Made by a program: the position numbers and the translations under genes
Part shown: in pieces, positions 42,905-59,341 of the stretch
Layout: each line of letters begins with the position of its first letter
How positions within the stretch are numbered: the first letter of the stretch is position 1
Notes under the pieces: generated by a model
What the model saw: the letters and a program-made list of their open reading frames with translations, nothing else
Told to the model about the DNA's origin: nothing
The model's database searches: none
From: a virus
Direction: 5' to 3' (one strand)
DNA length: 64,000 nucleotides
Virus record (IMG/VR): IMGVR_UViG_3300020198_000009
Span: 1 to 64,000 of that record

Positions 42905-43108
42905 CTAGGCCAATGGAGGCTGGTTGCAGAGCTCCATGAAGATCAGGTCCTCATAGATGCCGGCCAGCTTCTCGGTGTAGATCGGGTCGAACCCGGCGGC
43001 CGCAGCGCCCGGCACCGTGCCGGCGGCCTTCTCGGCGCCCAGCTGCATGGCCGCGGCGCGGAGTTCGGCGGCGACCTTGCCCAGCGCTTCTTCGATCTTG
43101 GGATCCAT
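42905..43108 (-). CDS. Small KxA-motif head protein
   Basis: KVA, KAA, KLA in 67 aa. Confidence 0.55.
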   Translation of the reverse strand: MDPKIEEALGKVAAELRAAAMQLGAEKAAGTVPGAAAAGFDPIYTEKLAGIYEDLIFMELCNQPPLA

Positions 43109-43120: not shown

Positions 43121-43402
43121 CTAAGAGGCGGCGTAGCCGGCGTTGAAGGCGGCCTGCTTGTCGAGTTCGAACAGGATGGCGTCGAACTCGGGATCGGCGG
43201 CGGCGAGTTTGTCGAGCTGGTCGTAGAAGGCCGTGTTGAAGAGATCGGAAGCCGCGTCGTCCTGGGCATAGGCGCTCTTGACGGCCAGTTCTTCCCAGTA
43301 GGCGTTGTTCCAGGCGATCTCGGCGGCCGATTTGGTCTGCTGGAGCTCGGGGACCGCGCCCTGATTGGCCAGCAGGTTCTGGTAGGCGGTGTAGGGATCC
43401 AT
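43121..43402 (-). CDS. Putative internal head/scaffold protein with MDPYTAY leader
   Basis: MDPYTAYQ; KSA x2, KLA, KQA. Confidence 0.6.
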   Translation of the reverse strand: MDPYTAYQNLLANQGAVPELQQTKSAAEIAWNNAYWEELAVKSAYAQDDAASDLFNTAFYDQLDKLAAADPEFDAILFELDKQAAFNAGYAAS

Positions 43403-43543
43403 GTCTTCCTCCTACTGGACGGAACCAGCGGCGTAGCCGGCGTTGAAGGCGGCCTGCTTCTGCTGCTCGAACAAGAGGGCGTCGAACTCGGGGTCGGCCG
43501 CAGCGAGCTTGTCTATCTGATCGAAGAAGGCCTCGTTGAAGAG
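43128..43543. repeat. Diverged direct repeat of about 116 bp (43128-43243 and 43428-43543) encoding paralogous C-termini
   Basis: LFNxAFxDQxDKLAAADPEFDAxLFExxKQAAFNAGYAA in both genes; first 32 bp identical. Confidence 0.85.
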
Positions 43544-43861
43544 GGCCTGCTTGGTCTGGGGATCGAAATCGTACTCGGCGGCCTCTTTGGCGACCAGGTC
43601 GCCCAGCAGCAGGTTGCGCTCGGCCAGGGCCGCGTTGTAGCGGGTGATGGCCGCGGTCGCGTACGCCGCCTTGATGTGATCGGGCAGATTCGCGATGTCC
43701 TGCGCGATCTTCTCGGCCGGGACTTCCGGATTGCCCTGGCCGGCCGCCTTGATCTCCGGGGCGGCCGGGTCGATCGCCGGAGTCTCGGCGGGTGCCGCCG
43801 CAGCGGCCTTGGTGACCTGTTCCTGCTCCATTGCGGTCAGGAGATCGTCGAGGTAGCTCAT
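43412..43861 (-). CDS. Putative internal head/scaffold protein, KxA-rich
   Basis: KAA, KIA, KEA, KQA, KLA; CTATAAT promoter at 43888-43894. Confidence 0.6.
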   Translation of the reverse strand: MSYLDDLLTAMEQEQVTKAAAAAPAETPAIDPAAPEIKAAGQGNPEVPAEKIAQDIANLPDHIKAAYATAAITRYNAALAERNLLLGDLVAKEAAEYDFDPQTKQALFNEAFFDQIDKLAAADPEFDALLFEQQKQAAFNAGYAAGSVQ

Positions 43862-43888
43862 GGTTTTTCGCAGGGCCTCCTGTTCGAA

Positions 43889-44128
43889 TTATAGAGTGGT
43901 GGTATTACCAACGCCGGTGGCGGACTCGATGCCGCCCGCCAGCGCCCGCACGGCCGGCGGGAAGAGTGCGTAGTCGACGACCGCTCCGGCCCCCTGACCG
44001 ATCAGACCGGCCGGCCCGCGGCCCGGGTAGGTGAAGAAACCCACCAGCGCAGGGATGGCCGACGGATGCCGCTCATCGCCTTCGGCCGCGGCCTTGGCGC
44101 GGGCCATGTACAGCTCGTAGGGCGTCAT
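43889..44128 (-). CDS. Small MTPYE-leader protein
   Basis: MTPYELYMARAKAA followed by a Gly/Ala hydrophobic segment; ATGA coupling to the protease gene. Confidence 0.55.
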   Translation of the reverse strand: MTPYELYMARAKAAAEGDERHPSAIPALVGFFTYPGRGPAGLIGQGAGAVVDYALFPPAVRALAGGIESATGVGNTTTL

Positions 44129-45477
44129 GGCAGGGCGATCCCCAGGCTGCCGTACCCGCACGATCCGGTCGCCGCCTTGTAGAGCCCGTGGTAGATCCCG
44201 AGCCATCGGGCCTGCTCGGCCGAGACCGCCGCGGGTTCTGGATGACGCGCGCCGCTCTTGAGCAATCGGGCCGACAGATGCGGCTCGCGGTAGCTACGGG
44301 CCCAGGCATAGGGTTCTAGCCAGCCGTGGGCCAGGGCAATCTTGGTCCGGTCGGTATCGAGCAGGGGGGTCTGGGCCAGCTTGGCAATGCCCGGCACGTC
44401 GCAATCCGGCCGGGGCGGCGTCGAGACGACCAGTTCGTCGAGATCCAGTGCTGCCACCTTGGCCGCGGGCCCGAAGACCACCCCGAGCAGCTCCGAGGGC
44501 CGCAGGGCCATCCCGAGCTGCTCGCAAGCCGCCAGCGCGTTGCCCAGGCCCAAGCCGGCCAACTTGTCCAGCACGAAGCCCGGCAGGGCCGGCTCGCGAT
44601 CGTAGAGCCCCACCAGGTGGTCCAGGGCGATGTCGGCCGGCAGGTCGAGATCCTTCTTGACGATGGTGGCGTCCTTGGAGTTGCGACCTGTATTCTCAGA
44701 AGCGACCTTCATGAGCAGCATGGCCTCGGGCGCGGCCGGACTCTCGACGAGGCTCTCGTCGAAAAAGTCCGGGAAATCATTTATCATCACGACAGCAACG
44801 CCGTCGGGACGTATCTGACGCAGGGCATAGTCGGGAGAGCCTGGGCGCAGATGACCGCAGTATTGCCGGCGTGTCGGGGCCAGGTTGCCGCAGAGCGGGC
44901 AGCGATCGTAAGGCACACGCGCCGCCATTGATGTTGCGACGTTAAGTCCTCGGTCTGCCCGCTCGGCCCACTTGCGCCCCCGGGTGCGATCGAAGCTGAT
45001 GAGGTTCTCGACCCGGTGCATGCGCGGGTTCCAGAAGGTGTCAAGCACGTTACCCAGGGCCGTCCTGGGGTCCTTGTTGCGGTGCTCCTCGAAGACGTGG
45101 GCCTTGCGGAAGGTCGTATAGCCCCAGGTCTTGGGCAGGCGATGGGCGTAGCGATCGAAGAAGCTCATGGGCACGTCGGCTGGTGGCCGGCCCAGGAGGG
45201 CATTCTCGGGCCACGCGTCGCCGTTGTTGTTGGGCCCCCAGTGCTCGGTCGACCCCAGGCCGATGACCAGCAGGTAGCACTTGCCCTTCTCGGGCACCAC
45301 CTCGCTGGCGGCCTTGACGGCTTCTTCGGCCGCGGCGGTCTTGACCTTGCCATGGCCCAGGCGATCGTCGACCTCCAGGCGGCCACGGCACTCGACCAGG
45401 GGCACGCTGTGCTGCTCGCCCTCGCCCAGGTAGTCGTGCTCGCCGGGCGTGACGAACTTGACGAGATCGTCGCTCAT
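44125..45477 (-). CDS. Prohead (capsid maturation) protease with Zn-ribbon insertion
   Basis: GPNNNGDAWP, TF..AHVFEEH.NKD, TSMAARV.YD.CPLCG...C.HL, FFDESLV..PA...A..LMKVA. Confidence 0.75.
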   Translation of the reverse strand: MSDDLVKFVTPGEHDYLGEGEQHSVPLVECRGRLEVDDRLGHGKVKTAAAEEAVKAASEVVPEKGKCYLLVIGLGSTEHWGPNNNGDAWPENALLGRPPADVPMSFFDRYAHRLPKTWGYTTFRKAHVFEEHRNKDPRTALGNVLDTFWNPRMHRVENLISFDRTRGRKWAERADRGLNVATSMAARVPYDRCPLCGNLAPTRRQYCGHLRPGSPDYALRQIRPDGVAVVMINDFPDFFDESLVESPAAPEAMLLMKVASENTGRNSKDATIVKKDLDLPADIALDHLVGLYDREPALPGFVLDKLAGLGLGNALAACEQLGMALRPSELLGVVFGPAAKVAALDLDELVVSTPPRPDCDVPGIAKLAQTPLLDTDRTKIALAHGWLEPYAWARSYREPHLSARLLKSGARHPEPAAVSAEQARWLGIYHGLYKAATGSCGYGSLGIALP

Positions 45478-47510
45478 CGTTGGGAGCCAACCGGCCCGAG
45501 GGCAATCGGCTTTGGCGTGGGGCGACCCAATGGTCCCCCCATCCCCCAGTCGGCCCGCGTCGGCCGGGCATAGTGCTGCGGCAACAGCGCCGCTAAATCG
45601 CCGCGGGCGCGAAGTGACGCCCTGCCATCTGCCATGATGGCCATTCCTTCATCCCATCCCAAGGGCGCCCCGGGAAGGGAGGGGTGTGGCATGCGGCCGC
45701 TATTGAAGAGCCTGGTAATTCGCTCGGCCTTGGGGTTGATCTGGGCCTTGGCGGCCATTACCTGGCTGACAGCCCGCTGGCGAGCCGCGGGGTAGACGCG
45801 ATCCAATGCCCGAAATTCGTCGGCCTTCCTGGCGTAACCGACAGCATGTCCTACCCCCCGAAGGGCACTGTCCAGGAAGCCGGCCTCCTTGACCTGCTCG
45901 CGCGCAAACGCAAACCCCTCCCAGTAGAGCCTTCCGAGTTCAGCCTGCTTGACGACCCGGGCCGGAGAATCGGCGGGCACGGGGCGACCTTTCAACTTGG
46001 CCAGGGCGGCCGCCACGGCTTCGAGGCCGCGGCCCAAGTGGTCCTTGCCGATGATTTCCTGGGCGATTGGCCAGAGCGGATCGTCGGGACCGACCGGTCG
46101 CAAGGTACCGGGCGGCAGGAAGCCGGCGGCACGCTTGACGCGGCGGCCCGACCAGGCCAGGCGGTTCATCACCTGGGGTGATTGTGCAGCGCTGGCCTGC
46201 GCGGAAGCCATAGCCGCGGCGAACGTATCACGGTTCGTGCGATCCAGGGCGATCGGCAACCTGGCCGACCAGCGACCTCCGGCGTCGCCATGCAAGGCGT
46301 CGATGTGCGCGAAGGCATCGCTCAAAATGGGTCGACGAAACGTTCCATCGCCCGCCTCGGCAGCTGGCACGACTTGGGGTGTCTTTTGCCAGGCGCGCGT
46401 CAGCAAATCACGACTCTGTTGCGTGCGCACGGCGGCTTGTTGGGCCTTCTCGGCCCGCCGTGCCGCCTGGGTGGTGGGCATGTACTTGGCGATATCTCGC
46501 GCCGCCTCGGCCCCGAAAAGATGCTCATTAGCCCGGGCGCCCATCTGATGCACCAGCGTGTCCTGGCCCATCTGCATGAGTTTTGACCCCTGGGGGCCAC
46601 TCGCGAACTCGAATACTTTCTCGAAAATCTGCGCCTGGCGTTGCGGATCGTTGCGCGCCGTGAGGCCATGGACCACCCCGAAGCCGTTCGCGGTGGTAAG
46701 GGCATGCATTTCGGTCGCCTTGCGCGCCGCGAGTAGATCAAGGACGGGCTCATGAGGAACGGGTTGCCCGGTCCGTAACTCGTCGCCCCGGATTTGCAGC
46801 CGATTAGCGACAGCATGGGGATCGACTCGCCGCAACGACCGAGACAAGCCCTCGACACCCTCGGCCCGATAAGGCGCGATGGCCTGCCCGATGCGATGCG
46901 CCCGCAGCAGCTGGGCCGGAGTGTCGGCCGTACGCAGGATTTGCGCCAAGCGCGTCGCGGCCACCTTCTCGGGCACCCCGGCGCCGAACTTGGGTGGCAG
47001 ATGCTCCAGCAGATTGCCGGCCGGACGAAAAAGGCCAGCGGCTGGTCCATGGCTCGCCGGCAACGGCTCGAACAACGGCATGCCAGCCGAAAGGCGCCCC
47101 TTCTGCCGCATGTCTCTCGGATCGGCGGCGCCGAGCCCTAACTTCCTGGGGGGCGCCAAGCGCAGCGCGCCGTCCGGCAATCTCTCCACCAGCGGCGTGT
47201 TGAATTGCCGCATTTCATTCCGCTGACGCGCGTAAGACGCCTCCAGGGCCTCCTCGATGTCATCGGCCGCGCTCTTGTACCCCAGCTGCATGAGCAAGGC
47301 GTCCCGGTGCATGTTGGCCCGGTTGAACCCCGAGGCCGCCCCTACCAATCCGCCGATTGCCGATCCCGCCCCCATGGCCTCCAGGTTCCGCCTGAAGACC
47401 AACCCCGCCAGAGCCCCCAAACCCAGGCCCTTGACCGAGTCCTTGGCCACCTCACCGCCGGTGTAGGCAATGGGGTTGGTCAGGGGTTCGTTGGGGTCGC
47501 CGTAGCTCAT
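45474..47510 (-). CDS. Large putative internal head polyprotein (glycine-zipper N-terminus, multiple KxA sites)
   Basis: GLGLGALAG..GAGSAIGGLVGAASG; KSA, KVA, KRA, KQA, KEA punctuate the protein. Confidence 0.5.
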   Translation of the reverse strand: MSYGDPNEPLTNPIAYTGGEVAKDSVKGLGLGALAGLVFRRNLEAMGAGSAIGGLVGAASGFNRANMHRDALLMQLGYKSAADDIEEALEASYARQRNEMRQFNTPLVERLPDGALRLAPPRKLGLGAADPRDMRQKGRLSAGMPLFEPLPASHGPAAGLFRPAGNLLEHLPPKFGAGVPEKVAATRLAQILRTADTPAQLLRAHRIGQAIAPYRAEGVEGLSRSLRRVDPHAVANRLQIRGDELRTGQPVPHEPVLDLLAARKATEMHALTTANGFGVVHGLTARNDPQRQAQIFEKVFEFASGPQGSKLMQMGQDTLVHQMGARANEHLFGAEAARDIAKYMPTTQAARRAEKAQQAAVRTQQSRDLLTRAWQKTPQVVPAAEAGDGTFRRPILSDAFAHIDALHGDAGGRWSARLPIALDRTNRDTFAAAMASAQASAAQSPQVMNRLAWSGRRVKRAAGFLPPGTLRPVGPDDPLWPIAQEIIGKDHLGRGLEAVAAALAKLKGRPVPADSPARVVKQAELGRLYWEGFAFAREQVKEAGFLDSALRGVGHAVGYARKADEFRALDRVYPAARQRAVSQVMAAKAQINPKAERITRLFNSGRMPHPSLPGAPLGWDEGMAIMADGRASLRARGDLAALLPQHYARPTRADWGMGGPLGRPTPKPIALGPVGSQR

Positions 47511-47592
47511 GGGGTCCTTTACGGCCGATCGGCGGTCGGCCTTGGGAGACCGCCGCCGATCGGGCTTGCCTTGCTTGCGTAAGGGGAGGTTG

Positions 47593-48261
47593 TCAGGAAA
47601 CCTGGAACCCGGCCGCCTTGAAGGCCGTGCCTTCCTGGTAGAGGGCCTCCAGGATGGCCTGGCGTTCGGCGGCTACGTCGTGGGCAGCCTTCCCGAAGAG
47701 CGCCCCGGCGCCCACCTGGGCGGCATCCATCGGGTACTGGGCGGCCAGCTGCTGCGCCCGGATGAGGGCAAGCTGCTTGGCGTTCGCGGCGCCCTGGGCG
47801 GCCAGCGGCAGGGCCGGCACCGGCGCCCCGGCGGCCATCGCGGCCGCGGTGGGCTGCCCGGCGTTCATGGCTTCCTTGGCTACCTGGCCGGGAAAGGGGG
47901 CATCCACGGCGCCTGCCGCCCCCTTGACCTCCAGGTACCAGGCGTTGGCGAACTCGCGCGCCTCGTTCTCGATCGCCGCGGCCTTGACATCCGCGAACAT
48001 CTGGAGGCTGGGCGAGGTGCCGGGCGCCGGGTTCGACCAGCCGGCCCCGCCGTCGGCGCTGGGGTTCTGCATGATCGGTGCGGCTCCCTGCGCGGCGCGC
48101 TGGAGTGCGATCTGCGTGTTGGTGGCCATGGCCGGATTCGAGTCCATCGAACCGGTGGTCCCCGGGTTGGGGCCCGCACCGACCTGGCCGGGCACCAGAG
48201 CATCGACCGCCTGCTTCTGGCTCTGGGCCAGCAGCTGCTGATAGGCCGTGTACGGATCCAT
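47593..48261 (-). CDS. Putative internal head protein with MDPYTAY leader
   Basis: MDPYTAYQQLLAQSQKQA; KAA, KGA, KEA; promoter CTATAAT at 48304-48310. Confidence 0.6.
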   Translation of the reverse strand: MDPYTAYQQLLAQSQKQAVDALVPGQVGAGPNPGTTGSMDSNPAMATNTQIALQRAAQGAAPIMQNPSADGGAGWSNPAPGTSPSLQMFADVKAAAIENEAREFANAWYLEVKGAAGAVDAPFPGQVAKEAMNAGQPTAAAMAAGAPVPALPLAAQGAANAKQLALIRAQQLAAQYPMDAAQVGAGALFGKAAHDVAAERQAILEALYQEGTAFKAAGFQVS

Positions 48262-48327
48262 TAGTCGTCGTCCTCCTGGAAAAGTGATCTGACCTTCGAA
48301 GGAATTATAGAGATTACCCTCTTGGTC

Positions 48328-48858
48328 CTACGGCCTCCCATAGGCGTGAGCCAATGAGAGCCCGTGGTGGATGAAATTGATGGCATTGGACTCGGCCCCA
48401 CGCGCCGCGGCGTCGATGGTGCCCTGGGCACTGATGAGATCCTTGAAGGCCCCGTGATCGACCCCGTCGTAGGCGATGAAGCGCTTGATCAGGTTGCCGA
48501 CCACCAGCGGGTTCTCGGCGGTGCTCGGCGAGCCCTGGGCGATCGAGTCGAAGTAGAGCCGGACCTTCTCGGGCTTCTCGCGCTGGAGCTCGGGATAGAC
48601 TTGAAGCATCTTGGAGTAGGACTGCTGGAGCTTGATCGAATCCGACAGCATCCCCACGCCCTTGAGGGCCAGCGCCCCGCCGGCCAGCATGCCGGCATGC
48701 TGGGCCAGCGCCCCGAAGCCCAGGGGCTTGGGCCGGGTGGCATACTCCAGACCCTTGAACGCCAGGCCCCCCAGAGTGCCGATGGCACCAACCGCGGCAT
48801 TGGTTCGCCCCATCCAGTCGGGCCTGAAGATGCGCTGAGCATCGGTATACCAGGGCAT
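48328..48858 (-). CDS. Putative virion protein with Gly-rich hydrophobic helices
   Basis: MPWYTD..; Y..M....PEL....E.V..YF.SI....P....NPLV.G..I. Confidence 0.55.
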   Translation of the reverse strand: MPWYTDAQRIFRPDWMGRTNAAVGAIGTLGGLAFKGLEYATRPKPLGFGALAQHAGMLAGGALALKGVGMLSDSIKLQQSYSKMLQVYPELQREKPEKVRLYFDSIAQGSPSTAENPLVVGNLIKRFIAYDGVDHGAFKDLISAQGTIDAAARGAESNAINFIHHGLSLAHAYGRP

Positions 48859-48859
48859 A

Positions 48860-49618
48860 TTACCCCTCCTGGAGCTGGACCAGATGGTCCCGGACATTGC
48901 GGCGCCGCGCCCGCAGATCGATCACCGCGGCCATCCGGGCGGCTGCGGTCTTGGCGAGTTCGACCAGGTCGGTGGCGTGCCGCTGGGTCTCGGGCACCAG
49001 GATGCGCAGTTGCCCGCGAGTAAACGCGTGCTTCTCGATCGCCGTAGCCTCGAAGACCCGATCGACCAGCTGGCGCTCGAAAGGAGAGAGTGTCTCGAAC
49101 TGCTGCTGGTAGACCCCCAGCTTCTCGATGCCGAGCTCCTTGGCGCGAGCCACCCGGGACTCCATGGTGGCGAGCAGGTCGCGAATTTCGGCCATGGCCA
49201 CCTTGATCTGCGAATCGAGCTGGCTACGACGGGCGGCGAGTTTTTGCAGGAGTGCCGGCGTGTCGTCGAAGGCGATGCCGCCCGGGCGGGCGCTGGAGTA
49301 CCCAGACCCCGAGCCGAGCGTCGTACGCACGGCCAGGCCGGGACTTGCCGACGCGGCCTTGACGGCCTGTTTTTCGCCATGCATGGCCAGTAGCACCCTT
49401 TCGGCGTAAGCGGGCGGGAACTCGTCGCACTTGTCGAGCTCCATGGCCTTCTTGAAGGCATGGCGGTTCACCAGCTGCGTCAGGCTCCGGACGGTATGGT
49501 CGTTGTAGCCGAGCGCCGAGGCGTGCTTGGCGATGGCCTCATGGATATCGGCGCCCTGGCGGACCGACTCGACGATTTGCTGGGCCTCGGCATCCAGCTT
49601 GGGCTTGATGTTTCCCAC
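48860..49618 (-). CDS. Putative virion/head protein, KxA-rich; possibly leaderless
   Basis: KHA x2, KQA, KLA, KVA, KTA; GTG start 6 nt after CTATAAT (49625-49631). Confidence 0.55.
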   Translation of the reverse strand: MGNIKPKLDAEAQQIVESVRQGADIHEAIAKHASALGYNDHTVRSLTQLVNRHAFKKAMELDKCDEFPPAYAERVLLAMHGEKQAVKAASASPGLAVRTTLGSGSGYSSARPGGIAFDDTPALLQKLAARRSQLDSQIKVAMAEIRDLLATMESRVARAKELGIEKLGVYQQQFETLSPFERQLVDRVFEATAIEKHAFTRGQLRILVPETQRHATDLVELAKTAAARMAAVIDLRARRRNVRDHLVQLQEG

Positions 49619-49732
49619 GCTGGGATTATAGATGTCGCCCGCCGAGCACCGCGGAGGACGGTTCCGGCCCAGCGCAAGAGGCGCCCGAGGACCCCCGGCC
49701 GCAGCCGGAGGCCGAGGAGCCAGCCCGGGAGC

Positions 49733-50104: not shown

Positions 50105-50160
50105 CTTTTCACGATCTCCTTGTATCTGAGTGTCTGGTGGTATTACCATACTAGCACAGG

Positions 50161-53058: not shown

Positions 53059-53204
53059 GCCCGATGCGTCGCCCCGCAGTCCCGGCAAATCACGACCTGC
53101 TCGCTCTGGGCCAACGCACCGTCCGAGCCGCGCTTTTCGAGTTCCTGGGTATCGACGTTGCCCGACTCGCAGACCTGGCAGTGGAGGCGTCCGTCCTTGA
53201 TCAT
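53055..53204 (-). CDS. Small zinc-ribbon protein
   Basis: MIKDG..CQVC...EKRG...CRDCG. Confidence 0.5.
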   Translation of the reverse strand: MIKDGRLHCQVCESGNVDTQELEKRGSDGALAQSEQVVICRDCGATHRA

Positions 53205-53206
53205 GG

Positions 53207-53698
53207 CTAGGCCGCCAGATTGAGGTAACGCAGCGCGTAGCGCTTGTCGAGGGATATCAGATGGCGTGAATACGCTGGGTCGGTGGCGTACCCGCACTCG
53301 CGCAGCCCGTTGGCCCAGCCCTCGAAATCCCCCTTGGCCAGCTTGAAGAGCGGTCGATACCGCTTGCCCAGTAGGAACTTGGCGTGATCCACGAAGGACT
53401 CGACCATGCTAGGGTAGGCCCGGAAGTAGTGGTACTCGGTCACGTAGCGGCCATGGCGCCACTCCTTGGTGCGTCGCAGGACCTTGGGGCCGGCCCAACG
53501 CTCGTCGGCCTTGACCCCGAAGTAGTTCTTGGCGCCGCCGGCATCGCTCTTGCCGCCGTTGGATTCGAGTAGCCACTGGGCGAACGTGATGCCGGCCGGC
53601 ACCCCGAAGAGCCGCTCGGTGGCCTGGGAGGCCTTGGCGGCCTCGTCCCAGAGGGCCCGGGCGGACGTGCCGGGCTTGGGCCAGTTGCTATTGGGCAT
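53207..53698 (-). CDS. GH73/FlgJ-like glucosaminidase (endolysin or virion muramidase)
   Basis: AQWLLES.GGKS...NYFGVKA...W.G...T.E....FRAY.S..ES..DH..FL...RY; GYATDPAY. Confidence 0.9.
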   Translation of the reverse strand: MPNSNWPKPGTSARALWDEAAKASQATERLFGVPAGITFAQWLLESNGGKSDAGGAKNYFGVKADERWAGPKVLRRTKEWRHGRYVTEYHYFRAYPSMVESFVDHAKFLLGKRYRPLFKLAKGDFEGWANGLRECGYATDPAYSRHLISLDKRYALRYLNLAA

Positions 53699-54137
53699 CC
53701 GATGTTCCCTCTATCGCGGCGACGTAAGCCTGACGGGAGACCTTCTCGAAGGTCTTGTTGAGCGAAATCGTCCAACAGTCGGCCTTCATCACCAGGACCA
53801 GGGTGGCACCTGGCAAGACGCCAACCCATTGCGACGATTGCTCGTGGAGAATGGACATTCGAACACCGCGCAAAGCGGCCTCAAGCTTGAGGGTTTGCTT
53901 CCGATCGCTGGTGTCGTCAATCAGCACGAAGCTGAACGCGTCATCCTGGTTGACCCCGCTCCAGCGGGCCAGTTTCCCCTGCACATCGACGTACTCGAAC
54001 TCGCAGCCCACCTGGGGGATCTGGGGCTCGTAGTAGAGCTGGAAGGCGATCAGGTTGCCGGGATCGATGGCCTGGCCATCGAGATCGATCCGGGTGGTCG
54101 CGAGCGTGCCTTCCGAGGTGGCCTTGACGACGCTCAT
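53688..54137 (-). CDS. Hypothetical protein
   Basis: MSVVKATSEG...; RBS GGAGG. Confidence 0.5.
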   Translation of the reverse strand: MSVVKATSEGTLATTRIDLDGQAIDPGNLIAFQLYYEPQIPQVGCEFEYVDVQGKLARWSGVNQDDAFSFVLIDDTSDRKQTLKLEAALRGVRMSILHEQSSQWVGVLPGATLVLVMKADCWTISLNKTFEKVSRQAYVAAIEGTSDAQ

Positions 54138-54427
54138 GGGGTAGCCTCCCCGGACGGCTCCTGCGCCTCCATGAAGTCCGGAAGCAAGCGCCGACTGATG
54201 CCGCTCTCCGAGAGAATGTTCCAGACGACACCGCCATTGACGAGCCGAGCAGCCTGGTCTTCGAGGACGTCGACACCGACCCATGCCTCCTCGTCGGTCT
54301 CGAACTGCGAACGGATGGACCGGAAGACCTCCTGGCGCTCGGCGGCGGGCTTGCGCATGGCGAGCGGATTTGCGCGCAGCGCCGCCAGAAAGCCCTGGTC
54401 GAGTTGGCGCGCCTCGTCTATTCCCAT
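54134..54427 (-). CDS. Hypothetical protein
   Basis: MGIDEARQLDQGFL...; overlaps a short upstream ORF (54418-54528). Confidence 0.45.
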   Translation of the reverse strand: MGIDEARQLDQGFLAALRANPLAMRKPAAERQEVFRSIRSQFETDEEAWVGVDVLEDQAARLVNGGVVWNILSESGISRRLLPDFMEAQEPSGEATP

Positions 54428-54568
54428 GGATCGATCTCGCTCTCGAACTCCTTGTCGGCCAGCGCCTGGCGCAACCAGGGATCGATCGGGGCCACCTCGC
54501 CCGGGATGGTCTGACTGGTCTCGTCCATGAATAATAAGGATAGCAGGTAGGACCAGCAGGAGCAACCA

Positions 54569-55123
54569 TTGGATCGAGCCTGGGAAATCGCCGCCGCCCT
54601 CGACTTCGTGGCCGAGTGCCGGGGCAAGGCGGCCGCCATCCACATCGGCCCCAACTCGGAGCGCCTGGCCGAGAAACTCCTGGTCATGCGCCGCATTCCT
54701 ACCGAACGCGCCCCGCTCGACGCAATCGGCAAGCAGCGATTTGCGCGGGCATTCGAGAATCTTTCCGAAGAAGGGAAAGACCGCCTGTCGGTGCGCGTCC
54801 AGCCCTTCAAGCAGGCCAGCGAGTTCGCCTACATCTCCGAAGTGCCCATCGCCGGCGAGCACTTCTCGAACCAGCGCCTGGAAAACGACTACATGTTCAA
54901 GCATCCGGTCATCAGCACGCTCCATCCAGCCCCCTGGGTCGGGGCGGCGCTGGGGGCCGTCGTGGGCCGACGGTTACACAAGAACCTCCTGGGCTCGGCC
55001 ATGATCGGCGGCTCCGCCGGCCTGCTCGCCGAGGGCGCCCATCGCCTGAATTTCCTGCTCGGGGCCCGCAAACAGCTCCAGGCAGGCAAGAACCCGCTCG
55101 ATCGCAGGTTCGCCAAGCTGTGA
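54569..55123 (+). CDS. Putative virion protein with glycine-zipper C-terminus
   Basis: KAA, KQA; GAALGAVVG..GSAMIGGSAG; RBS AGGAG. Confidence 0.5.
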   Translation: MDRAWEIAAALDFVAECRGKAAAIHIGPNSERLAEKLLVMRRIPTERAPLDAIGKQRFARAFENLSEEGKDRLSVRVQPFKQASEFAYISEVPIAGEHFSNQRLENDYMFKHPVISTLHPAPWVGAALGAVVGRRLHKNLLGSAMIGGSAGLLAEGAHRLNFLLGARKQLQAGKNPLDRRFAKL

Positions 55124-55314
55124 CCAGCGAGTTCCTGGTGAACTGGCACCACGTCGCCCTGGCGGGATTGTTCGCCGTCAGCCCCCTCCTGCTCGCCGGC
55201 CTCATCATCCTGGCCAGCATCCTCCAGGGCCGCTGTACGGCCTGCGCCGGGAAGCTCGCCGGCAGGCACTTCCCCTGGTGGCTGTGCGCGGCATGCAAGG
55301 CGGGCAGACCATGA
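55120..55314 (+). CDS. Small membrane protein with CxxC pairs
   Basis: Hydrophobic VALAGLFAVSPLLLAGLIILA; CTAC, CAAC; GTGA/ATGA overlaps. Confidence 0.45.
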   Translation: MTSEFLVNWHHVALAGLFAVSPLLLAGLIILASILQGRCTACAGKLAGRHFPWWLCAACKAGRP

Positions 55315-56426
55315 TCCGCACCACCAAGTCGCTCTACCTGCGCACGGTCGAACTGGCCAAGGACACGGTACCCGAGCCCTTCCTGAATTACGGCCACGCC
55401 GACGATCTGGGCCTGGGCTGGTTTCCATCGCGCGAGGCGTTCTCGGACAATGCCGATCCGGTCTTTTGGCGTGGGTTGCCACGCTTCTGCGGGGCGGTCT
55501 TCCCCTACCGCCACAACTTCCAGACCCTCTCACACCTGACCATCATCCCCTATACCGAATTCAATCAGCTCGATCGCCAGAAACGCTTCTGTCTGCCCAA
55601 CCGGCGACGCACCGGCAAGACGCCCGCCGGAGTCTTCGGCATCGAGCGCCTGCGCCGCAAACACAAGGTCCTGGTGGTCACCGACGACGAGGCCGCGGTC
55701 TGCAAGGATCCCGACACGATCGCCGTGAGCAACCTCGACGCCACCCTGATTCGCTTCATCTGCCGCGCGGCCCACAACATCGAGGTACAGGGCTCGACCG
55801 CGGGCTGGACGGCCAGGATGTTCGATCTCGCGCGCCATGGCACCCCGGTGAGCGTCAACGGCGTGGACATGGTCGAGCACGTCGCGGGCAAGATCCTGGA
55901 GATGTTCCACCAGCGCGCATCGCTGCCCATCCTGACCCACCGCGCCGTCGAGTACCTCAACTGCCTGCTGCCCATCCAGCGCATGGCCGTCATCGGCATC
56001 CTCAAGCAGGAGCACAACCTCGATCTGTCCCGCACGTTGCCCGACGACTTCCATGTCTTCCGCCGCGAGGGGGATTTCTATGATGCCGTGGGGCAGGCGC
56101 TCCGTGCCAAGCTGGCCGACGCGCGCTTCGAACCGCCTTTCGGGATCCAGGTGACCAGCCGGGACGGCAGGCGCCTGCTGGTGCCCTACGAACGGGGAGT
56201 CCTGGGGGCGGTACTGGCCGAGCTGGTGGGCGCCAGGCTCGACCTGCTCGACTGGGCCTATGATCAATTGCAGGAGCTCCCTCACTTCTATCTCTTCAAG
56301 GAGCACGAGCAGCTGGCCACCCGGGCCGAGGTCTCGCGCAAGGTCGAAGAGGTGGCCCTGGCCGTCTTGAGCCGCATGGCCGCCGAGGCCGACGCCCGCA
56401 AACCGATCGGGAGGATAGCGCAATGA
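55311..56426 (+). CDS. Hypothetical protein (weak, unconfirmed primase/TOPRIM-like look)
   Basis: VFPYR..., GVFGIE.L....VLVVTDD; function not established. Confidence 0.45.
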   Translation: MIRTTKSLYLRTVELAKDTVPEPFLNYGHADDLGLGWFPSREAFSDNADPVFWRGLPRFCGAVFPYRHNFQTLSHLTIIPYTEFNQLDRQKRFCLPNRRRTGKTPAGVFGIERLRRKHKVLVVTDDEAAVCKDPDTIAVSNLDATLIRFICRAAHNIEVQGSTAGWTARMFDLARHGTPVSVNGVDMVEHVAGKILEMFHQRASLPILTHRAVEYLNCLLPIQRMAVIGILKQEHNLDLSRTLPDDFHVFRREGDFYDAVGQALRAKLADARFEPPFGIQVTSRDGRRLLVPYERGVLGAVLAELVGARLDLLDWAYDQLQELPHFYLFKEHEQLATRAEVSRKVEEVALAVLSRMAAEADARKPIGRIAQ

Positions 56427-57883
56427 CCCCCTACGAGCACTACCTGCTGGCCAAGGAAGCGAACTGGCTGGGGAATATCGGCCAGGGGTTTGCGCAAGCC
56501 GGCCGCAACGTCGGCCAGGCCGCCAAGCAGACCTGGACATTCGCGCGCAACCAAGGCCAGGAGCAGTCGGCCAATTGGTTTGGCCGCCAGCTGGGTGAAA
56601 ACGCCATACGGGGCTATCGCAACGAGCCCCTCTCAGCCTGGGGGCAACTCAAGGCCTTCGGGGTCGGCGTCTTGAGTCCGACTGCCGGCCAGGCCATGCT
56701 CGCCAGCCACTCGGGCGGGCGGGCAGTCGGGGGCGCTCAGGCGATCGCCGACTGGGCGCGGCCCCACCTGGCTCGCTTCGGTCGGCCCAAGCCCCAACCG
56801 GTCCATCCGGGGCTGCTGATCGCCGGCGGCCTGGGTGCCGGGGCGGCGGGCTACGGGGCCGCCCGGCTCATCGACGCCAAACAGCAGGAGGCCCAGGCGC
56901 AACGCCAGAACGCCCTGCTATCGCGCCAATTGACGCCCTACGAGGAGGCTCCGTACCAGAAGGTCGCCCAGATCCGGGCCCTGCTGGACACCGAGCGCGA
57001 CCTGCGCGCGGGCCTGATGGCCTCAGCCAAGGCCGCCGCGGCCCGGCGTGCCGAAGCCTGGCGCCACGGATCCCGCGAGGCCGAAGCCGAATCGGAAGGC
57101 GAGCCGGGCGGCGTCAAGCGGGCCGAGCTCGATCGCACCGCCACCAGGCTCCTGCGCGCCATCGAGCCGAAGTATGGCGGCTGCTGCCAGGATCTCGTCG
57201 AAGGCAAGGCGCTCGACAACGCCCATGCCCGTGGTGACCACCTACTAACCGAAAACGATGTCCAGAAAGCCTGGCGGGAGCATGGCCGGCCCTACCTCAT
57301 CCGTGAGAAGCTCGAAAAATCCGAGAGCTTGCCACACAAACTCGCCAGCCGCATCTTCCTGGGCGGGGCGGTCTCGGGCCCGCAGGCCAACTGGCGTGAG
57401 GGGATCAAGCGCAAGCTCTGGGAGAAGGGCCACAGCGTCATCGATCCCCGCAAGCCCTTCGTCAAGTGGAATCCGCTCTCGGACATCTACAAGGAGCTCG
57501 CGGGCATGATGAGGGCCGACAAGGTGTTCTTCTTCCGGCCCGGGGGCTTTTCTGAGCGCGAGAAGGCCGTGCTGGAGGCCGCGAAGAAACCCTACCAGGT
57601 GGTGCGCAAGCCCGAGGAGATCGTCCAGGCCGTCGAACAGAAGCGGGCCTACGATGCTATGCTGCCGGTCGATCTGCGCGGGGCCGGGACCCAGACGCCC
57701 TCGGCCTTCCCGGTCGACCAGCACGGCCAGCCCATGACCACCTTGCGCGGCATGCTCGAAGGCGACCTCGCTATGATCACCCTGGCAAGGTACCTGCGCG
57801 ACAAGAAGCTCAGCGAATTCGATCCCATCCTCTTGTCGCTGCTCGAACAGGCGGGCAAGCGCGCACTGACCAGGAGGCCCTGA
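56423..57883 (+). CDS. MTPYE-leader virion polyprotein containing a nucleoside 2-deoxyribosyltransferase-like domain
   Basis: MTPYEHYLLAKEA; internal LTPYEE..YQKVA; IFLGG......WR..I.......VIDPR....W.....E...M.RAD.V.F (about 57347-57640) bounded by KLA and KRA. Confidence 0.6.
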   Translation: MTPYEHYLLAKEANWLGNIGQGFAQAGRNVGQAAKQTWTFARNQGQEQSANWFGRQLGENAIRGYRNEPLSAWGQLKAFGVGVLSPTAGQAMLASHSGGRAVGGAQAIADWARPHLARFGRPKPQPVHPGLLIAGGLGAGAAGYGAARLIDAKQQEAQAQRQNALLSRQLTPYEEAPYQKVAQIRALLDTERDLRAGLMASAKAAAARRAEAWRHGSREAEAESEGEPGGVKRAELDRTATRLLRAIEPKYGGCCQDLVEGKALDNAHARGDHLLTENDVQKAWREHGRPYLIREKLEKSESLPHKLASRIFLGGAVSGPQANWREGIKRKLWEKGHSVIDPRKPFVKWNPLSDIYKELAGMMRADKVFFFRPGGFSEREKAVLEAAKKPYQVVRKPEEIVQAVEQKRAYDAMLPVDLRGAGTQTPSAFPVDQHGQPMTTLRGMLEGDLAMITLARYLRDKKLSEFDPILLSLLEQAGKRALTRRP

Positions 57884-57884
57884 C

Positions 57885-58493
57885 ATGACCCCGTACGAGT
57901 GCTACATGGAGCTGATGAAGACGGCCCATTCGGCCGAGATGGATCGCCTATCGGACCTGGAAAAGGAAGCTTTCTTCGGGGCGCTGGCAGCGGGACTTGG
58001 TCGCGGTTTCGCGGGGGCGGGCGCGGCGATGCGCGCGGGTGGCGGATTGGGGCAAACCCTCGGCGCTTTTACCAGCCGGTTCAGCCGGGGATGGAGATCC
58101 GCCACGCAGCCGCGAGTAGCGAGCCGGGGCCTCGGCACCAACCAAACCTTCAGACGGCCCCCAAGACCGGCAGCGCCCACTTCAACCGCCACGGCGAGTG
58201 GCCAGACGTCTTCGGGAGTCGCCAGCGGCAACGCCCCGGGCTTCATGGGCACGCCCATCGGAACGACCATGAAGAACTGGAAACAGATGACCCCGGCTGA
58301 GATGATGCAAGGGGCAGGATCGGTCCTGGCGGGCGCCGGCGGCCTGCTCACCGGCCTGGGGCTCATGCGGCCGGCCGCCAAGGCGCGCAGCCTCATGGGT
58401 CCGGCCGCGACGGTCGCCACCGGCCTGGCCATCGGCGGTGGCCTCTCGGGAGCGGGCAAGGCCCTGGCGGGTCCGGGATACACCAACTACTAG
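57885..58493 (+). CDS. MTPYE-leader Gly/Ala-rich putative ejection protein
   Basis: MTPYECYMELMKTA..EKEA then FFGALAAGLGRGFAG. Confidence 0.6.
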   Translation: MTPYECYMELMKTAHSAEMDRLSDLEKEAFFGALAAGLGRGFAGAGAAMRAGGGLGQTLGAFTSRFSRGWRSATQPRVASRGLGTNQTFRRPPRPAAPTSTATASGQTSSGVASGNAPGFMGTPIGTTMKNWKQMTPAEMMQGAGSVLAGAGGLLTGLGLMRPAAKARSLMGPAATVATGLAIGGGLSGAGKALAGPGYTNY

Positions 58494-58506
58494 GAGGGCA
58501 GGCACC

Positions 58507-58929
58507 ATGACCCCATACGAGCTGTACATGGCCAGGCAGAAGGAAGCGGCCTGGTCCGACTTCACCGATGCGTTCGTGAACGCCAAGAACTACTTCGGCG
58601 GTCGCAATCCCCAGGGGCTCAGGCAGGCCGCCACCGCCGCCAAGTTCGGCTTGGGCGATCTCGGCCGAGGGGCCGCCAATGTCTTGGGGCACATCCCCCA
58701 GGCCTATCCCCACCTGGCCGGCGCCGCCACCGCCGCCAGCCTCGGCAGCATGGCCCTGGGGGGTCTGCGGGCCCTGCGCGAAGACCGCATGGCCGCCCAG
58801 GCCGGCCAGGAAGTCACCAGGGCCTTCAAGCCGCAGGCCACCAGACTGACCGACAGCGGCAAACTCGCCCTGGTAGGGGCTGCCGGCGTCGGCGGCGGCT
58901 ACCTGCTCGGCCGGGCCGGCAACCAGTAG
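58507..58929 (+). CDS. MTPYE-leader Gly/Ala-rich putative ejection protein
   Basis: MTPYELYMARQKEA; RBS AGGAGG; C-terminal GAAGVGGGYLLG. Confidence 0.6.
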   Translation: MTPYELYMARQKEAAWSDFTDAFVNAKNYFGGRNPQGLRQAATAAKFGLGDLGRGAANVLGHIPQAYPHLAGAATAASLGSMALGGLRALREDRMAAQAGQEVTRAFKPQATRLTDSGKLALVGAAGVGGGYLLGRAGNQ

Positions 58930-58936
58930 GCACGCC

Positions 58937-59341
58937 ATGTCTCCCTACGGCCTGTACATGGCGCAAAAACGCGGCAGTATCCACGGCGTGTTTCCCGAAC
59001 TCGCCGCCGGGCCCGGGGTGCTCGACGCCATGGCCACGGCCTGGCGAGACATGCGCCATACCCGCATCCGCTCGCAGCGCGACGCACTCCTGGCCCAGGC
59101 CGATACGGCCGCCAGCCCCGCCCAGGCCAGCCGCCTGCGCGTCCAGGCCAACCAGCTGAGAGCCAAGCTGCCACTTCCGCCGCGACACGGACCGGCAGCC
59201 CCCGCGCGGGCCGATAGCCGGCATCACCCCGCCTTCGATCCGCCGCCGATTCCCGAATCGCCCGGCTCCTACGAGGAGCTGGCGGCCATGCGCGATCGGG
59301 CACGCCAGCTCGCCCAGGGCCAGACACCAGCCAAGCGATAA
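58937..59341 (+). CDS. MSPY-leader small protein
   Basis: MSPYGLYMAQKRG; directly precedes the RNAP gene. Confidence 0.5.
   Translation: MSPYGLYMAQKRGSIHGVFPELAAGPGVLDAMATAWRDMRHTRIRSQRDALLAQADTAASPAQASRLRVQANQLRAKLPLPPRHGPAAPARADSRHHPAFDPPPIPESPGSYEELAAMRDRARQLAQGQTPAKR

What the first reader, a model, noticed from the sequence alone, without database searches (positions are those of the whole stretch)
43121..59341. Shared N-terminal M(T/D/S)PYxxY...KxA leader: candidate capsid-targeting signal and protease code for injected cargo
Seen: seven genes start with the same motif: MDPYTAY (43402, 48261), MTPYELY (44128, 58507), MTPYEHY (56423), MTPYECY (57885) and MSPYGLY (58937). Most are followed within about 5-20 residues by KEA/KTA/KQA/KAA/KSA, after which the sequences are unrelated and often Gly/Ala-rich glycine-zipper helices. 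KxA also punctuates the scaffold-like proteins, the capsid N-terminus (EKVA) and the end of the protease domain (MKVA). Known: T4 internal proteins carry a short N-terminal capsid-targeting sequence removed by the gp21 protease, and phiKZ head proteins are cut at a short recurring motif. Inference: an analogous, portable address-and-release system with Lys-x-Ala specificity, processed by the protease at 44125-45477.
Basis: partly seen in the sequence, partly recalled or inferred. Interest (0 to 1): 0.82.

Follow-up and report, generated by a model that had tools for sequence, protein, structure and literature searches.

The report
Shared head-loading leader on phage proteins
An uncultured large phage starts at least twelve unrelated proteins with the same short tag (MTPYxxYM…KxA); the tag ends in what looks like the cutting motif of the phage's capsid-maturation protease, so it most likely loads proteins into the capsid and is then clipped off, as in phage T4, but with a different tag and cut site.

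Summary
All seven window genes start with M[TDS]PYxxY. The 80.4-kb record (about 39% of a roughly 200-kb genome) holds 12 such genes plus a truncated 13th, against 0.0005 expected by composition. Eleven of the 12 continue with K-x-A within 3-17 residues. The mature parts are unrelated, and codons vary synonymously.

K-x-A is the only over-represented gapped dipeptide in the head module (50 seen, 19.4 expected, z 7.6-7.8). It is not enriched elsewhere, apart from one gene beside the portal. Orthologues in three IMG/VR relatives and in cultured Salmonella phage Arash show the same enrichment. The motif brackets the protease domain and is invariant at residue 27-29 of the capsid protein. Its extended form is [LIM]-x-K-x-A-[S/A].

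The protease has the T4 gp21/herpesvirus assemblin fold (Z 9.5 to 5JBL). T4's own [LI]xE motif gives the same statistical signature in gp22, gp21 and gp68.

T4 internal proteins share the leader's layout, with aromatics at positions 4 and 7 followed by the cut motif. One cargo has an ADP-ribosyltransferase fold, as T4 Alt does.

Packaging and cleavage remain unobserved. I class this as a new variant of the T4 capsid-targeting system. The scan has noted similar leaders on other DNA, one of them with the same hydrophobic-x-K-x-A-S motif.

The parts
43121..43402 (-). Leader gene 1 (93 aa): MDPYTAYQNLL...TKSA. All 4 Lys are in KxA. The C-terminal 40 aa are paralogous to the scaffold-like gene 43412-43861.
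43889..44128 (-). Leader gene 2 (79 aa): MTPYELYMARAKAA, followed by a Gly-rich domain. Its ATG overlaps the protease stop codon (ATGA). Orthologues in L001, L002, L003 and L015 keep the leader, followed by a spacer of 0-45 aa.
47593..48261 (-). Leader gene 3 (222 aa): MDPYTAYQQLLAQSQKQA|VDALVPGQVG. 6 of 7 Lys are in KxA. In 15 orthologues, [TS]P[YF]xx[YFW] is kept in 13, a K-x-A/S site in all 15 and the VDALVPGQVG block in nearly all, with variable spacing between them.
56423..57883 (+). Leader gene 4 (486 aa): MTPYEHYLLAKEA. It has a Gly-zipper segment, an internal leader-like TPYEEAPYQKVA, and a weak match to a nucleoside 2-deoxyribosyltransferase-like domain. Its ATG overlaps the stop of the upstream gene.
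56936..56977 (+). Internal leader-like stretch in gene 4 (aa 172-185, TPYEEAPYQKVA). It may be a joint left by a fusion of two cargo genes, or an internal processing site.
   Evidence: inference
57885..58493 (+). Leader gene 5 (202 aa): MTPYECYMELMKTA. Gly/Ala-rich, with membrane-like segments.
58507..58929 (+). Leader gene 6 (140 aa): MTPYELYMARQKEA, with an AGGAGG ribosome-binding site upstream. Gly/Ala-rich.
58937..59341 (+). Leader gene 7 (134 aa): MSPYGLYMAQKRG. This is the only leader without KxA. It ends 4 nt before the RNA polymerase gene.
44125..45477 (-). Prohead protease (450 aa). The T4 gp21/assemblin-fold domain spans about aa 49-259 and is bracketed by near-invariant KTA(46-48) and KVA(257-259). 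A low-confidence linker with KDA(268) follows, then a helical C-terminal domain with 5 more KxA sites. 10 of 20 Lys are in KxA.
43412..43861 (-). Scaffold-like protein (149 aa). All 8 Lys are in KxA (expected 2.0). A KQA lies 12-14 residues from the C-terminus, before an AFNAGYAA tail.
42905..43108 (-). Small head-core protein (67 aa); 3 of 4 Lys are in KxA.
48860..49618 (-). Head-module protein (252 aa); 8 of 14 Lys are in KxA. Orthologues in L001, L002 and L003 have 10/13, 11/18 and 8/13.
40514..41443 (-). Major capsid protein (309 aa). K27-V-A29 is invariant in five capsid proteins, including Arash at 20% identity, and lies after a poorly conserved N-terminus. This is the candidate maturation site.
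21943..23109 (+). 14 of 20 Lys are in KxA (expected 2.7). It is a probable further protease substrate.
23875..25989 (+). Portal protein (homologue of Arash gp204, E 3e-62).
59346..63635 (+). Fused beta/beta'-N RNA polymerase (1429 aa), the last gene of the operon that holds leader genes 4-7. Its Arash homologue gp206 is the most abundant virion protein. It has no leader itself.
   Evidence: PMC10585845

Best explanation
The leader is a two-part N-terminal propeptide.

Part 1 is (M)-[TS/D/N]-P-[YF]-x-x-[YFW]-hydrophobic. It probably starts a short amphipathic helix with an aromatic face. I infer that it acts as an address that binds the assembling prohead core, so that unrelated proteins are enclosed when the capsid shell forms.

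Part 2 lies 0-17 residues further on (0-10 across the orthologues of gene 3). It is the motif [LIM]-x-K-x-A-[S/A]. I infer that this is the recognition site of the phage's own gp21/assemblin-type prohead protease (44125-45477).

After shell assembly, the protease would do four things:
- cut itself out of its precursor at the KxA sites flanking its catalytic domain;
- chop the KxA-dense scaffold and core proteins into small peptides;
- trim about 29 residues from the capsid protein;
- clip the leaders.

This would leave mature cargo in the head, to be ejected with the DNA. The cargo would include glycine-zipper membrane-active proteins, an ADP-ribosyltransferase-fold enzyme and a deoxyribosyltransferase-like enzyme. 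By analogy with assemblins, which cut after Ala before Ser/Thr, the scissile bond is most likely K-x-A|S/A.

Shown here: the motifs, their statistics, their conservation, and the protease fold. Inferred: binding, packaging, cleavage, and the exact bond.
For: 1. There are 12-13 leader genes against 0.0005 expected. Conservation is at the protein level, on unrelated mature parts.

2. The leader is more conserved than the rest of the protein. The 15 orthologues of gene 3 keep a K-x-A/S site and nearly all keep VDALVPGQVG; 13 keep [TS]P[YF]xx[YFW]. The distance from the Met (1-4 aa) and the spacer (0-10 aa) both vary. A 31%-identical homologue of the ART-like cargo starts MTPYEFYMAKVASSAW. Orthologues of gene 2 keep Y7 and K12 before a spacer of 0-45 aa.

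3. In an unbiased scan of all gapped dipeptides, KxA is the single outlier in the head module defined by position (50 vs 19.4, z 7.6-7.8). AxK, KA, KxxA and RxA are flat, and nothing stands out in the other 65 genes. Per gene, the fraction of Lys in KxA is 8/8, 4/4, 6/7, 10/20, 8/14 and 14/20.

4. The orthologous genes are enriched in L001-L003. Arash gp218-226 shows KxA at z 6.2 and LxK at z 5.2.

5. Positive control: T4's known [LI]xE motif is enriched in gp22 (16 vs 5.6), gp21 (7 vs 2.5) and gp68.

6. The near-invariant KxA sites at 46-48 and 257-259 bracket the high-confidence protease domain and abut the low-pLDDT linkers at 40-45 and 263-279. K27/A29 are invariant in the capsid protein.

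7. Protease fold: T4 gp21 5JBL at Z 9.5 (129 aa, rmsd 3.2) and herpesvirus assemblins at Z 7-9; PHROG 'head maturation protease' at E 9e-12; tblastn hits to jumbo-phage prohead core proteases.

8. Pooled over 193 sites, Ser is 4.9-fold enriched immediately after K-x-A, and L/I/M about 2.5-fold at -2. Assemblin sites are YLQA-T and VQA-S (PMC4498786).

9. T4 ipII and ipIII start MKTYQEFIAE, and ipI starts MKTFKEF. These have aromatics at 4 and 7 and a hydrophobic residue at 8 before the cut motif, the same layout as MTPYELYM..KxA. T4 reviews state that diverse internal proteins share only the CTS (PMC3012670; PMC5694885).

10. The mature cargo (residues 21 to end) is not KxA-enriched.

11. Context: three leader genes flank the protease, and four are co-operonic with the RNA polymerase. 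In Arash, the RNA polymerase beta and beta' subunits and the helicase are abundant virion proteins. In relative G002 the helicase carries the leader MTPYQCYLAKMGA.

12. One cargo (64478-65290) has an ADP-ribosyltransferase-superfamily fold. Its best match is an RNA 2'-phosphotransferase at Z 10.0, and nearly all of the top 25 matches are ART folds. T4 Alt is a head-packaged, processed ART (PMC5694885).
Against: - There is no virion proteome or N-terminal data for any phage that carries the leader.
- The Arash proteome listed 116 proteins, and the scaffold-like gp223 had 100% coverage. It therefore does not discriminate, and it does not show cleavage.
- One leader (58937) lacks KxA.
- The probable virion RNA polymerase and helicase of this phage lack the leader, so it cannot be the only route into the head.
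- Many leader proteins carry membrane-like glycine zippers, so they could act at the membrane of the producing cell.
- The complete relative G003 (204 kb) has only about five leader genes and Arash has none, so the address function is not essential to the clade.
- All characterised gp21-family phage proteases cut after Glu (PMC5694885). A K-x-A specificity would be unprecedented for that family.
- The ART-like model has low overall confidence (pLDDT 47; 60-79 in the matched domain).
Confidence: 0.6

Rival explanations
1. KxA is indeed the protease site, but the aromatic part of the leader is not an address. It would be a removable propeptide that keeps membrane-active or toxic cargo inert, or holds it for a chaperone, until it is inside the head. 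Incorporation would be directed by other parts of each protein.
For: Many cargo proteins have glycine-zipper or enzyme domains that could harm the producing cell. The RNA polymerase and helicase probably enter heads without the leader. SPN3US propeptides are long and varied, and their targeting role is only inferred.
Against: The mature parts are unrelated, so a shared inhibitory mechanism acting through 8 residues is hard to picture. The same layout in T4 is sufficient to package foreign proteins (PMC3012670, PMC5694885). The spacer between the aromatic core and KxA varies from 0 to 45 aa, which fits a separate docking element.
Confidence: 0.15
2. The leader works outside capsid assembly. It could be a tag for membrane insertion, a phage chaperone, a compartment or a host protease. 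Its adjacency to KxA would then reflect a different processing enzyme, or none.
For: Half of the leader proteins have membrane-like Gly/Ala segments. JGI names some orthologues of gene 3 as membrane-anchored ElaB/YqjD-like. Precedent recalled from memory: Staphylococcus phage 80alpha capsid and scaffold leaders are cut by a host protease.
Against: The leader also sits on a scaffold paralogue and on a soluble ART-fold enzyme. It ends in the motif that is enriched only in head-core proteins and brackets the phage protease. It has no signal-peptide-like hydrophobic core and no twin-arginine motif.
Confidence: 0.12
3. The shared start is a nucleic-acid-level feature: either a translation-initiation region or a recombination cassette that spreads by duplication. 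There would be no selection on the peptide.
For: A near-identical repeat of about 62 nt (RBS plus the first 10 codons) occurs at 79591-79652 and at the contig end, 80368-80429.
Against: Third-codon positions vary (ACG/ACC/ACT, CCC/CCG/CCA/CCT, TAC/TAT) and the upstream regions are unrelated. In orthologues the motif keeps its sequence but shifts 1-4 residues from the start codon. It is conserved in homologues at 31% identity.
Confidence: 0.03

Closest known systems
Phage T4 capsid targeting sequence (CTS) of internal proteins IPI, IPII, IPIII (also Alt and gp24), removed by the gp21 prohead protease
   Same: Both are short N-terminal tags (10-20 aa) shared by otherwise unrelated proteins and ending in the prohead-protease motif. 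Aromatics sit at positions 4 and 7 and a hydrophobic residue at 8: MKTYQEFIAE in ipII/ipIII against MTPYELYM..KxA here. The proteases share a fold. The cleavage motif is over-represented in scaffold, core and protease proteins in both. Both have an ART-fold cargo (Alt). Literature: PMC3012670, PMC5694885.
   Different: There is no detectable sequence homology between the tags. The cut motif is [LIM]-x-K-x-A-[S/A] instead of [LI]-x-E. There are at least 12 tagged genes in 80 kb, against a handful in T4. A variable spacer lies between address and cut site. The host phage belongs to the Arash-like clade with a virion multisubunit RNA polymerase, not Straboviridae. Packaging is untested here.
Propeptides of phiKZ / 201phi2-1 / SPN3US head and ejection proteins, cut by gp175/gp245
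   Same: These are large phages with virion RNA polymerase and many ejection proteins processed by a gp21-family protease. The protease auto-cleaves its C-terminal part. The paralogues gp53 and gp54 share an identical 15-residue N-terminus that contains the motif (PMC5694885).
   Different: Their motifs end in Glu (A-x-E, S/A/G-x-E). Their propeptides are mostly 80-160 aa and are not a common portable tag.
Herpesvirus assemblin precursor (pUL26: protease, R-site, scaffold, M-site)
   Same: The fold is the same (Z 7-9). Assemblins cut after Ala before Ser/Thr (YLQA-T, VQA-S; PMC4498786), which matches K-x-A-[S/A]. The protease domain is followed by a linker site and a helical C-terminal domain. 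KxA sites lie 5-22 residues from the C-termini of the protease and scaffold-like proteins, an arrangement like the M-site.
   Different: Herpesviruses have no N-terminal cargo tag. The requirement for Lys at P3 is new. The R- and M-like cuts here are inferred only.
Staphylococcus phage 80alpha capsid and scaffold N-terminal leader, cut by the host protease Prp (recalled from memory, not checked here)
   Same: A short N-terminal motif shared by two head proteins and removed during assembly.
   Different: It is cut by a host enzyme and is present on two structural proteins only. It is not a cargo address.

Membership tests
T4-type capsid targeting sequence system | A short conserved N-terminal peptide on otherwise unrelated proteins | tested here: met
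   12 genes plus a truncated 13th. The mature parts are unrelated by BLASTP.
T4-type capsid targeting sequence system | The tag ends in the prohead protease's cleavage motif | tested here: met
   11 of 12 leaders end in KxA. KxA is the one over-represented motif of the head module. That KxA is the cleavage motif is itself an inference.
T4-type capsid targeting sequence system | The phage encodes a gp21-family prohead protease | tested here: met
   VIA-align Z 9.5 to T4 gp21 5JBL_A; phrog_18299 at E 9e-12.
T4-type capsid targeting sequence system | Tagged proteins are found inside heads, and the tag is necessary and sufficient for packaging | not testable with these tools
   This needs virion proteomics and leader-reporter fusions. 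No cultured phage carries the leader, and Arash lacks it.
T4-type capsid targeting sequence system | The tag is absent from the mature virion protein | not testable with these tools
   No N-terminal data exist. The Arash supplement holds only the feature table.
T4-type capsid targeting sequence system | Sequence relatedness to the T4 CTS | tested here: inconclusive
   The pattern is shared (aromatic at 4 and 7, hydrophobic at 8). The stretch is too short to tell homology from convergence.
T4 gp21 / herpesvirus assemblin protease fold (clan SH) | Assemblin-type fold of the catalytic domain | tested here: met
   Model pLDDT 86.5, domain 50-260. T4 gp21 at Z 9.5; VZV, PRV and HCMV proteases at Z 7-9. 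Foldseek alone was weak (E 0.045-0.13).
T4 gp21 / herpesvirus assemblin protease fold (clan SH) | Conserved catalytic Ser and His | tested here: inconclusive
   H132 and S183 are invariant in 31 homologues. I could not superpose them on the catalytic residues of 5JBL.
gp21-family phage proteases as characterised (T4, phiKZ, 201phi2-1, SPN3US) | Cleavage C-terminal to Glu at [LI]/A/[SAG]-x-E | tested here: not met
   In the head module A-x-E has z 0.6, [SAG]-x-E z 1.1 and [LI]-x-E z 2.5, against K-x-A at z 7.6. This is statistical evidence, not biochemical.
ADP-ribosyltransferase superfamily (cargo 64478-65290, outside the window) | ART/Tpt1-type fold of the C-terminal domain | tested here: met
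   9ld3_A at Z 10.0 (94 aa, rmsd 2.4) and 7kw9 at Z 8.2; nearly all of the top 25 matches are ART folds. The Atlas gave weak leads to PARP, Tox-ART and PTS_2-RNA. Model confidence is modest. Pfam found nothing. Activity and target are unknown.

The most novel reading that the evidence does not exclude
The address-plus-cut-site design may be an ancient companion of assemblin/gp21-type proteases rather than a T4 peculiarity. The same core (Met, two residues, aromatic, x-x, aromatic, hydrophobic) occurs in T4 internal proteins and in this unrelated clade. Here it is paired with a herpesvirus-like Ala|Ser specificity (K-x-A|S), and the protease precursor is laid out like herpesvirus pUL26, with a protease domain, an R-like site, a helical scaffold-like domain and an M-like site. 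At least 497 metagenomic stretches encode this protease and show KxA near the N-termini of neighbouring proteins. On this reading the clade would bridge phage and herpesvirus maturation chemistry, and it would offer a second, orthogonal protein-packaging tag.
Probability: 0.22. Interest if true: 0.8.

Novelty: new variant of a known kind. Interest (0 to 1): 0.62.

Why it matters
If true, it gives a sequence rule for reading the injected-protein arsenal of a large uncultivated phage clade straight from genomes: a tag plus [LIM]-x-K-x-A-[S/A]. At least 497 metagenomic stretches encode this protease.

It would also show that gp21-family phage proteases are not restricted to cutting after Glu. An Ala|Ser specificity would link them to herpesvirus assemblins.

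Finally, it would supply a second portable tag, orthogonal to the T4 CTS, for loading foreign proteins into phage heads. The tagged set here includes an ART-fold enzyme, a deoxyribosyltransferase-like enzyme and many glycine-zipper proteins, which are candidates for early host take-over and counter-defence functions.

Tried and rejected
- blastn of 40001-48000 against GenBank phages found no match.
- PHROGs and Pfam on all 12 leader proteins found nothing, apart from a sub-threshold Nuc_deoxyri_tr2 hit on gene 4. PHROGs on other head-module genes also found nothing.
- One Pfam call was wasted on a 50-aa fragment.
- The protease sequence and its profile gave no real match against PDB sequences. 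The fold was only recognised from the AlphaFold model.
The closest relative (P0002, 62% identical protease, on a 79-kb ENA contig) could therefore not be read.
- The exact DNA pattern for MTPYELYM in IMG/VR gave 0 hits. The looser pattern gave 50 single hits that are mostly chance or non-coding.
- IMG/VR scans with the gene-3 and ART-like alignments added no new relatives.
- The word-based homologue search for the ART-like cargo found only itself.
- Across the 80 wider-clade metagenome loci, the aromatic leader itself is rare: 11 pattern hits against 5 control hits. It is therefore a feature of this subclade, although K-x-A near N-termini is widespread.
- Arash has no leader, and its published tables cannot show cleavage.
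- I considered and rejected three readings. The leader as a Sec/Tat signal: it has no hydrophobic core and no RR. KxA as a coiled-coil composition effect: only the K-to-A pair at gap 1 is enriched. The 678-aa gene at 45474-47510 as the portal: the portal is at 23875-25989.

Full report
WHAT THE RECORD IS

The window is the first 64 kb of an 80,429-bp linear virus record. It is about 65% G+C, and CheckV rates it 39% complete. The protease, capsid protein and RNA polymerase place it in an uncultivated clade.
- The nearest genomes are three IMG/VR contigs with proteases 49-56% identical. One of them is a complete 203.7-kb genome with terminal repeats.
- The nearest cultured relatives are Salmonella phage Arash (181 kb) and Vibrio phages D181, D148 and D69.
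- At least 497 metagenomic stretches encode the same protease family.

THE OBSERVATION

Searching the whole record adds five more: 65290-, 68159+, 69409+, 69899+ and 79621+. A 13th copy is cut off by the contig end; it repeats the start of the 79621 gene.

The consensus is M-[T/D/S/N]-P-Y-x-x-Y-[M/L/Q]-x(1-3 in most; 7 and 15 in the two MDPYTAY genes)-K-x-A. From amino-acid composition, 0.0005 such starts are expected among 77 genes and 0.0085 among all 1231 long ATG-initiated frames; 12 are seen. Synonymous positions differ between copies and the upstream DNA is unrelated, so selection acts on the peptide. Beyond residue 18 the proteins have no significant similarity to each other. Eleven of the 12 have K-x-A starting at residues 10-24; the gene at 58937 has KRG.

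THE K-x-A MOTIF

I shuffled each protein and counted every residue pair at gaps 0-3.
- For the head module defined only by position (all 12 genes from 40514 to 49618), K-x-A is the single outlier: 50 seen, 19.4 expected, z 7.6-7.8.
- A-x-K (z 0.3), KA (0.0), K-x-x-A (1.4) and R-x-A (-1.1) are flat.
- The Glu-ending motifs of known phage proteases are weak: A-x-E at 0.6, [SAG]-x-E at 1.1 and [LI]-x-E at 2.5.
- The other 65 genes show no K-x-A excess.

Per gene, the fraction of Lys that lies in K-x-A is as follows:
- 8/8 in the scaffold-like 149-aa protein;
- 4/4 in its leader-bearing paralogue;
- 6/7 in gene 47593-48261;
- 10/20 in the protease;
- 8/14 in 48860-49618;
- 3/4 in 42905-43108;

That last gene lies just upstream of the portal. 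I located the portal at 23875-25989 by its match to Arash gp204.

The same orthologous genes are enriched in the three IMG/VR relatives. In Arash gp218-226, K-x-A is again the top pair (z 6.2) and L-x-K is second (z 5.2).

As a positive control, the same test on T4 recovers its known [LI]-x-E motif in the scaffold gp22 (16 vs 5.6), the protease gp21 (7 vs 2.5) and gp68. The mature parts of the leader proteins are not enriched.

Pooling 193 sites gives the extended motif [L/I/M]-x-K-x-A-[S/A]. Ser is 4.9-fold enriched right after the Ala, while L, I, D, K and P are depleted there. Orthologous sites are not independent, so this is a description, not a test.

WHERE THE SITES LIE

In an alignment of 31 protease homologues, K46/A48 and K257/A259 are at least 90% conserved, and H132 and S183 are invariant. 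The AlphaFold model has mean pLDDT 86.5. It shows a confident domain at 50-260. Low-confidence linkers at 40-45 and 263-279 adjoin those two sites, and a helical C-terminal domain carries five more K-x-A.

In the capsid protein, K27 and A29 are invariant across five sequences, including Arash at 20% identity. They follow a poorly conserved N-terminus.

Several core proteins have a K-x-A 5-22 residues from the C-terminus, before a short aromatic or Gly tail: KQA|AFNAGYAAS in both scaffold paralogues, KAA|TGSCGYGSLGIALP in the protease and KAA|GFQVS in gene 3. This arrangement recalls the release and maturation sites of the herpesvirus protease-scaffold precursor (PMC4498786).

THE PROTEASE

Sequence evidence is modest: phrog_18299 'head maturation protease' at E 9e-12, and tblastn hits to jumbo-phage 'prohead core protease' genes. 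Pfam and PDB sequence searches found nothing.

The model's domain at 54-260 aligns best to T4 gp21 (5JBL_A: Z 9.5, 129 residues, rmsd 3.2). Varicella-zoster, pseudorabies and cytomegalovirus assemblins follow at Z 7-9. Foldseek ranked the same proteins, but weakly.

All characterised phage members of this family cut after Glu (PMC5694885). Assemblins cut after Ala before Ser or Thr (PMC4498786). On the [S/A] preference, I infer that the cut here is K-x-A|S/A. That remains an inference.

THE LEADER IN RELATIVES

Fifteen orthologues of gene 47593-48261 from metagenomes read M-x(1-4)-[TS]-P-[YF]-[DE]-x-[YFW]-x(0-10)-K-[QS]-A-[VA]-DALVPGQVG. Thirteen keep the aromatic core, all keep a K-x-A/S site, and nearly all keep the block that follows. 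The distance from the start codon and the spacer both vary.

This pattern fits two separate functional elements followed by a conserved mature N-terminus. It argues against an effect of start-codon context.

- The small protein after the protease keeps Y7 and K12 in five phages, before a spacer of 0-45 residues.
- The only clear homologue of the 270-aa cargo (31% identical) starts MTPYEFYMAKVASSAW.
- In relative G002, a helicase related to the virion helicase of Arash begins MTPYQCYLAKMGA.

Leader copy number differs sharply between genomes: 13 in this 80-kb fragment, about five in the complete 204-kb relative, and none in Arash. In the wider clade the aromatic core is rare. However, the protein upstream of the protease often carries ...E-K-[QVLI]-A-[S]... 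within its first 10-25 residues.

COMPARISON WITH T4

T4 ipII and ipIII both begin MKTYQEFIAE, and ipI begins MKTFKEFTS...ITE. These have aromatics at positions 4 and 7 and a hydrophobic residue at 8, followed by the [IT]-x-E cut motif. The leader here has the same layout with a different cut motif.

Reviews state that the diverse T-even internal proteins share only this capsid targeting sequence. It places them in the scaffolding core, it is removed by gp21, and it can carry foreign proteins into heads (PMC3012670; PMC5694885).

WHAT THE CARGO IS

Six or so of the leader proteins are Gly/Ala-rich with membrane-like glycine-zipper segments. The same is reported for some ejection proteins of SPN3US.

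The 270-aa protein at 64478-65290, outside the window, was modelled from only three sequences (pLDDT 47 overall, 60-79 in residues 130-256). Its C-terminal domain matches RNA 2'-phosphotransferases (Z 10.0 and 8.2). The matches below that consist almost entirely of ADP-ribosyltransferase folds. The protein atlas gave weak leads to the same superfamily.

Gene 56423-57883 has a sub-threshold deoxyribosyltransferase-like match (E 4e-4) and an internal leader-like TPYEEAPYQKVA.

Leader genes 4-7 form one tightly spaced operon with the fused beta/beta' RNA polymerase. Its Arash homologue is the most abundant protein in virions, together with beta' and the helicase.

VERDICT

The protease-motif reading has strong, conserved and controlled statistical support. 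The head-targeting reading is the best explanation by analogy and context, but it is untested.

The main caveats are these:
- there are no proteomic data for any phage that carries the leader;
- one leader lacks the motif;
- the probable virion polymerase and helicase lack the leader;
- several cargo proteins look like membrane proteins.

I give the combined mechanism 0.6. I class it as a new variant of the T4 capsid-targeting system: a new tag, a new cut motif and a new clade.

Earlier notes of this scan describe comparable leaders on other phage DNA. One of them has the same hydrophobic-x-K-x-A-S motif.

Noticed in passing
window 50161-53058 (+): The large terminase is 965 aa, against 522 aa for its orthologue in L001 (2037-3605). 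The extra roughly 440 aa in the middle look like an intein with a homing-endonuclease domain. The local G+C falls to 0.59.
   Followed up: partly
window 59346-63635 (+) and G000 77719-79569 (+): The RNA polymerase is split unusually. One 1429-aa chain matches Arash gp206 end to end (33% identity) and includes the NADFDGD motif. A separate 616-aa gene carries Rpb1 domains 4-5 and is the Arash gp216 homologue.
   Followed up: partly
window 21943-23109 (+): A 388-aa protein upstream of the portal has 14 of its 20 Lys in K-x-A, the densest in the genome. It has no family match. It may be a portal-proximal core protein destined for complete degradation.
   Followed up: partly
G000 79591-79652 and 80368-80429 (L005 17591-17652 and 18368-18429): A near-identical direct repeat (one mismatch) covers the RBS and the first 10 leader codons. 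The contig ends inside the second copy, so the assembly may have broken at a leader-gene repeat.
   Followed up: partly
window 63654-64367 (+); G000 67733-68158 (+): Two further genes begin with a minimal K-x-A-S near the start (MQPTKEAS, MYHKTAS) and lack the aromatic core. They may carry very short propeptides.
   Followed up: no
L098, L104, L113, L127, L109, L131, L142 (IMG/VR contigs, 24-145 kb): A separate family of roughly 150-177-aa proteins in unrelated viral contigs starts MTPYE[QSN]YM[VM].[YH]K.., followed by a membrane-like segment (GVAIAGLTVG). The first eight residues match the leader here, but there is mostly no K-x-A. Their relation to this system is unknown.
   Followed up: no
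window 45474-47510 (-): A 678-aa protein between leader gene 3 and the protease has a glycine-zipper N-terminus and no family match. It is not the portal, as its position might suggest.
   Followed up: partly
window 53207-53698 (-): An endolysin (phrog_3513, E 3e-34) lies between the terminase and the leader-gene/RNA polymerase operon.
   Followed up: no
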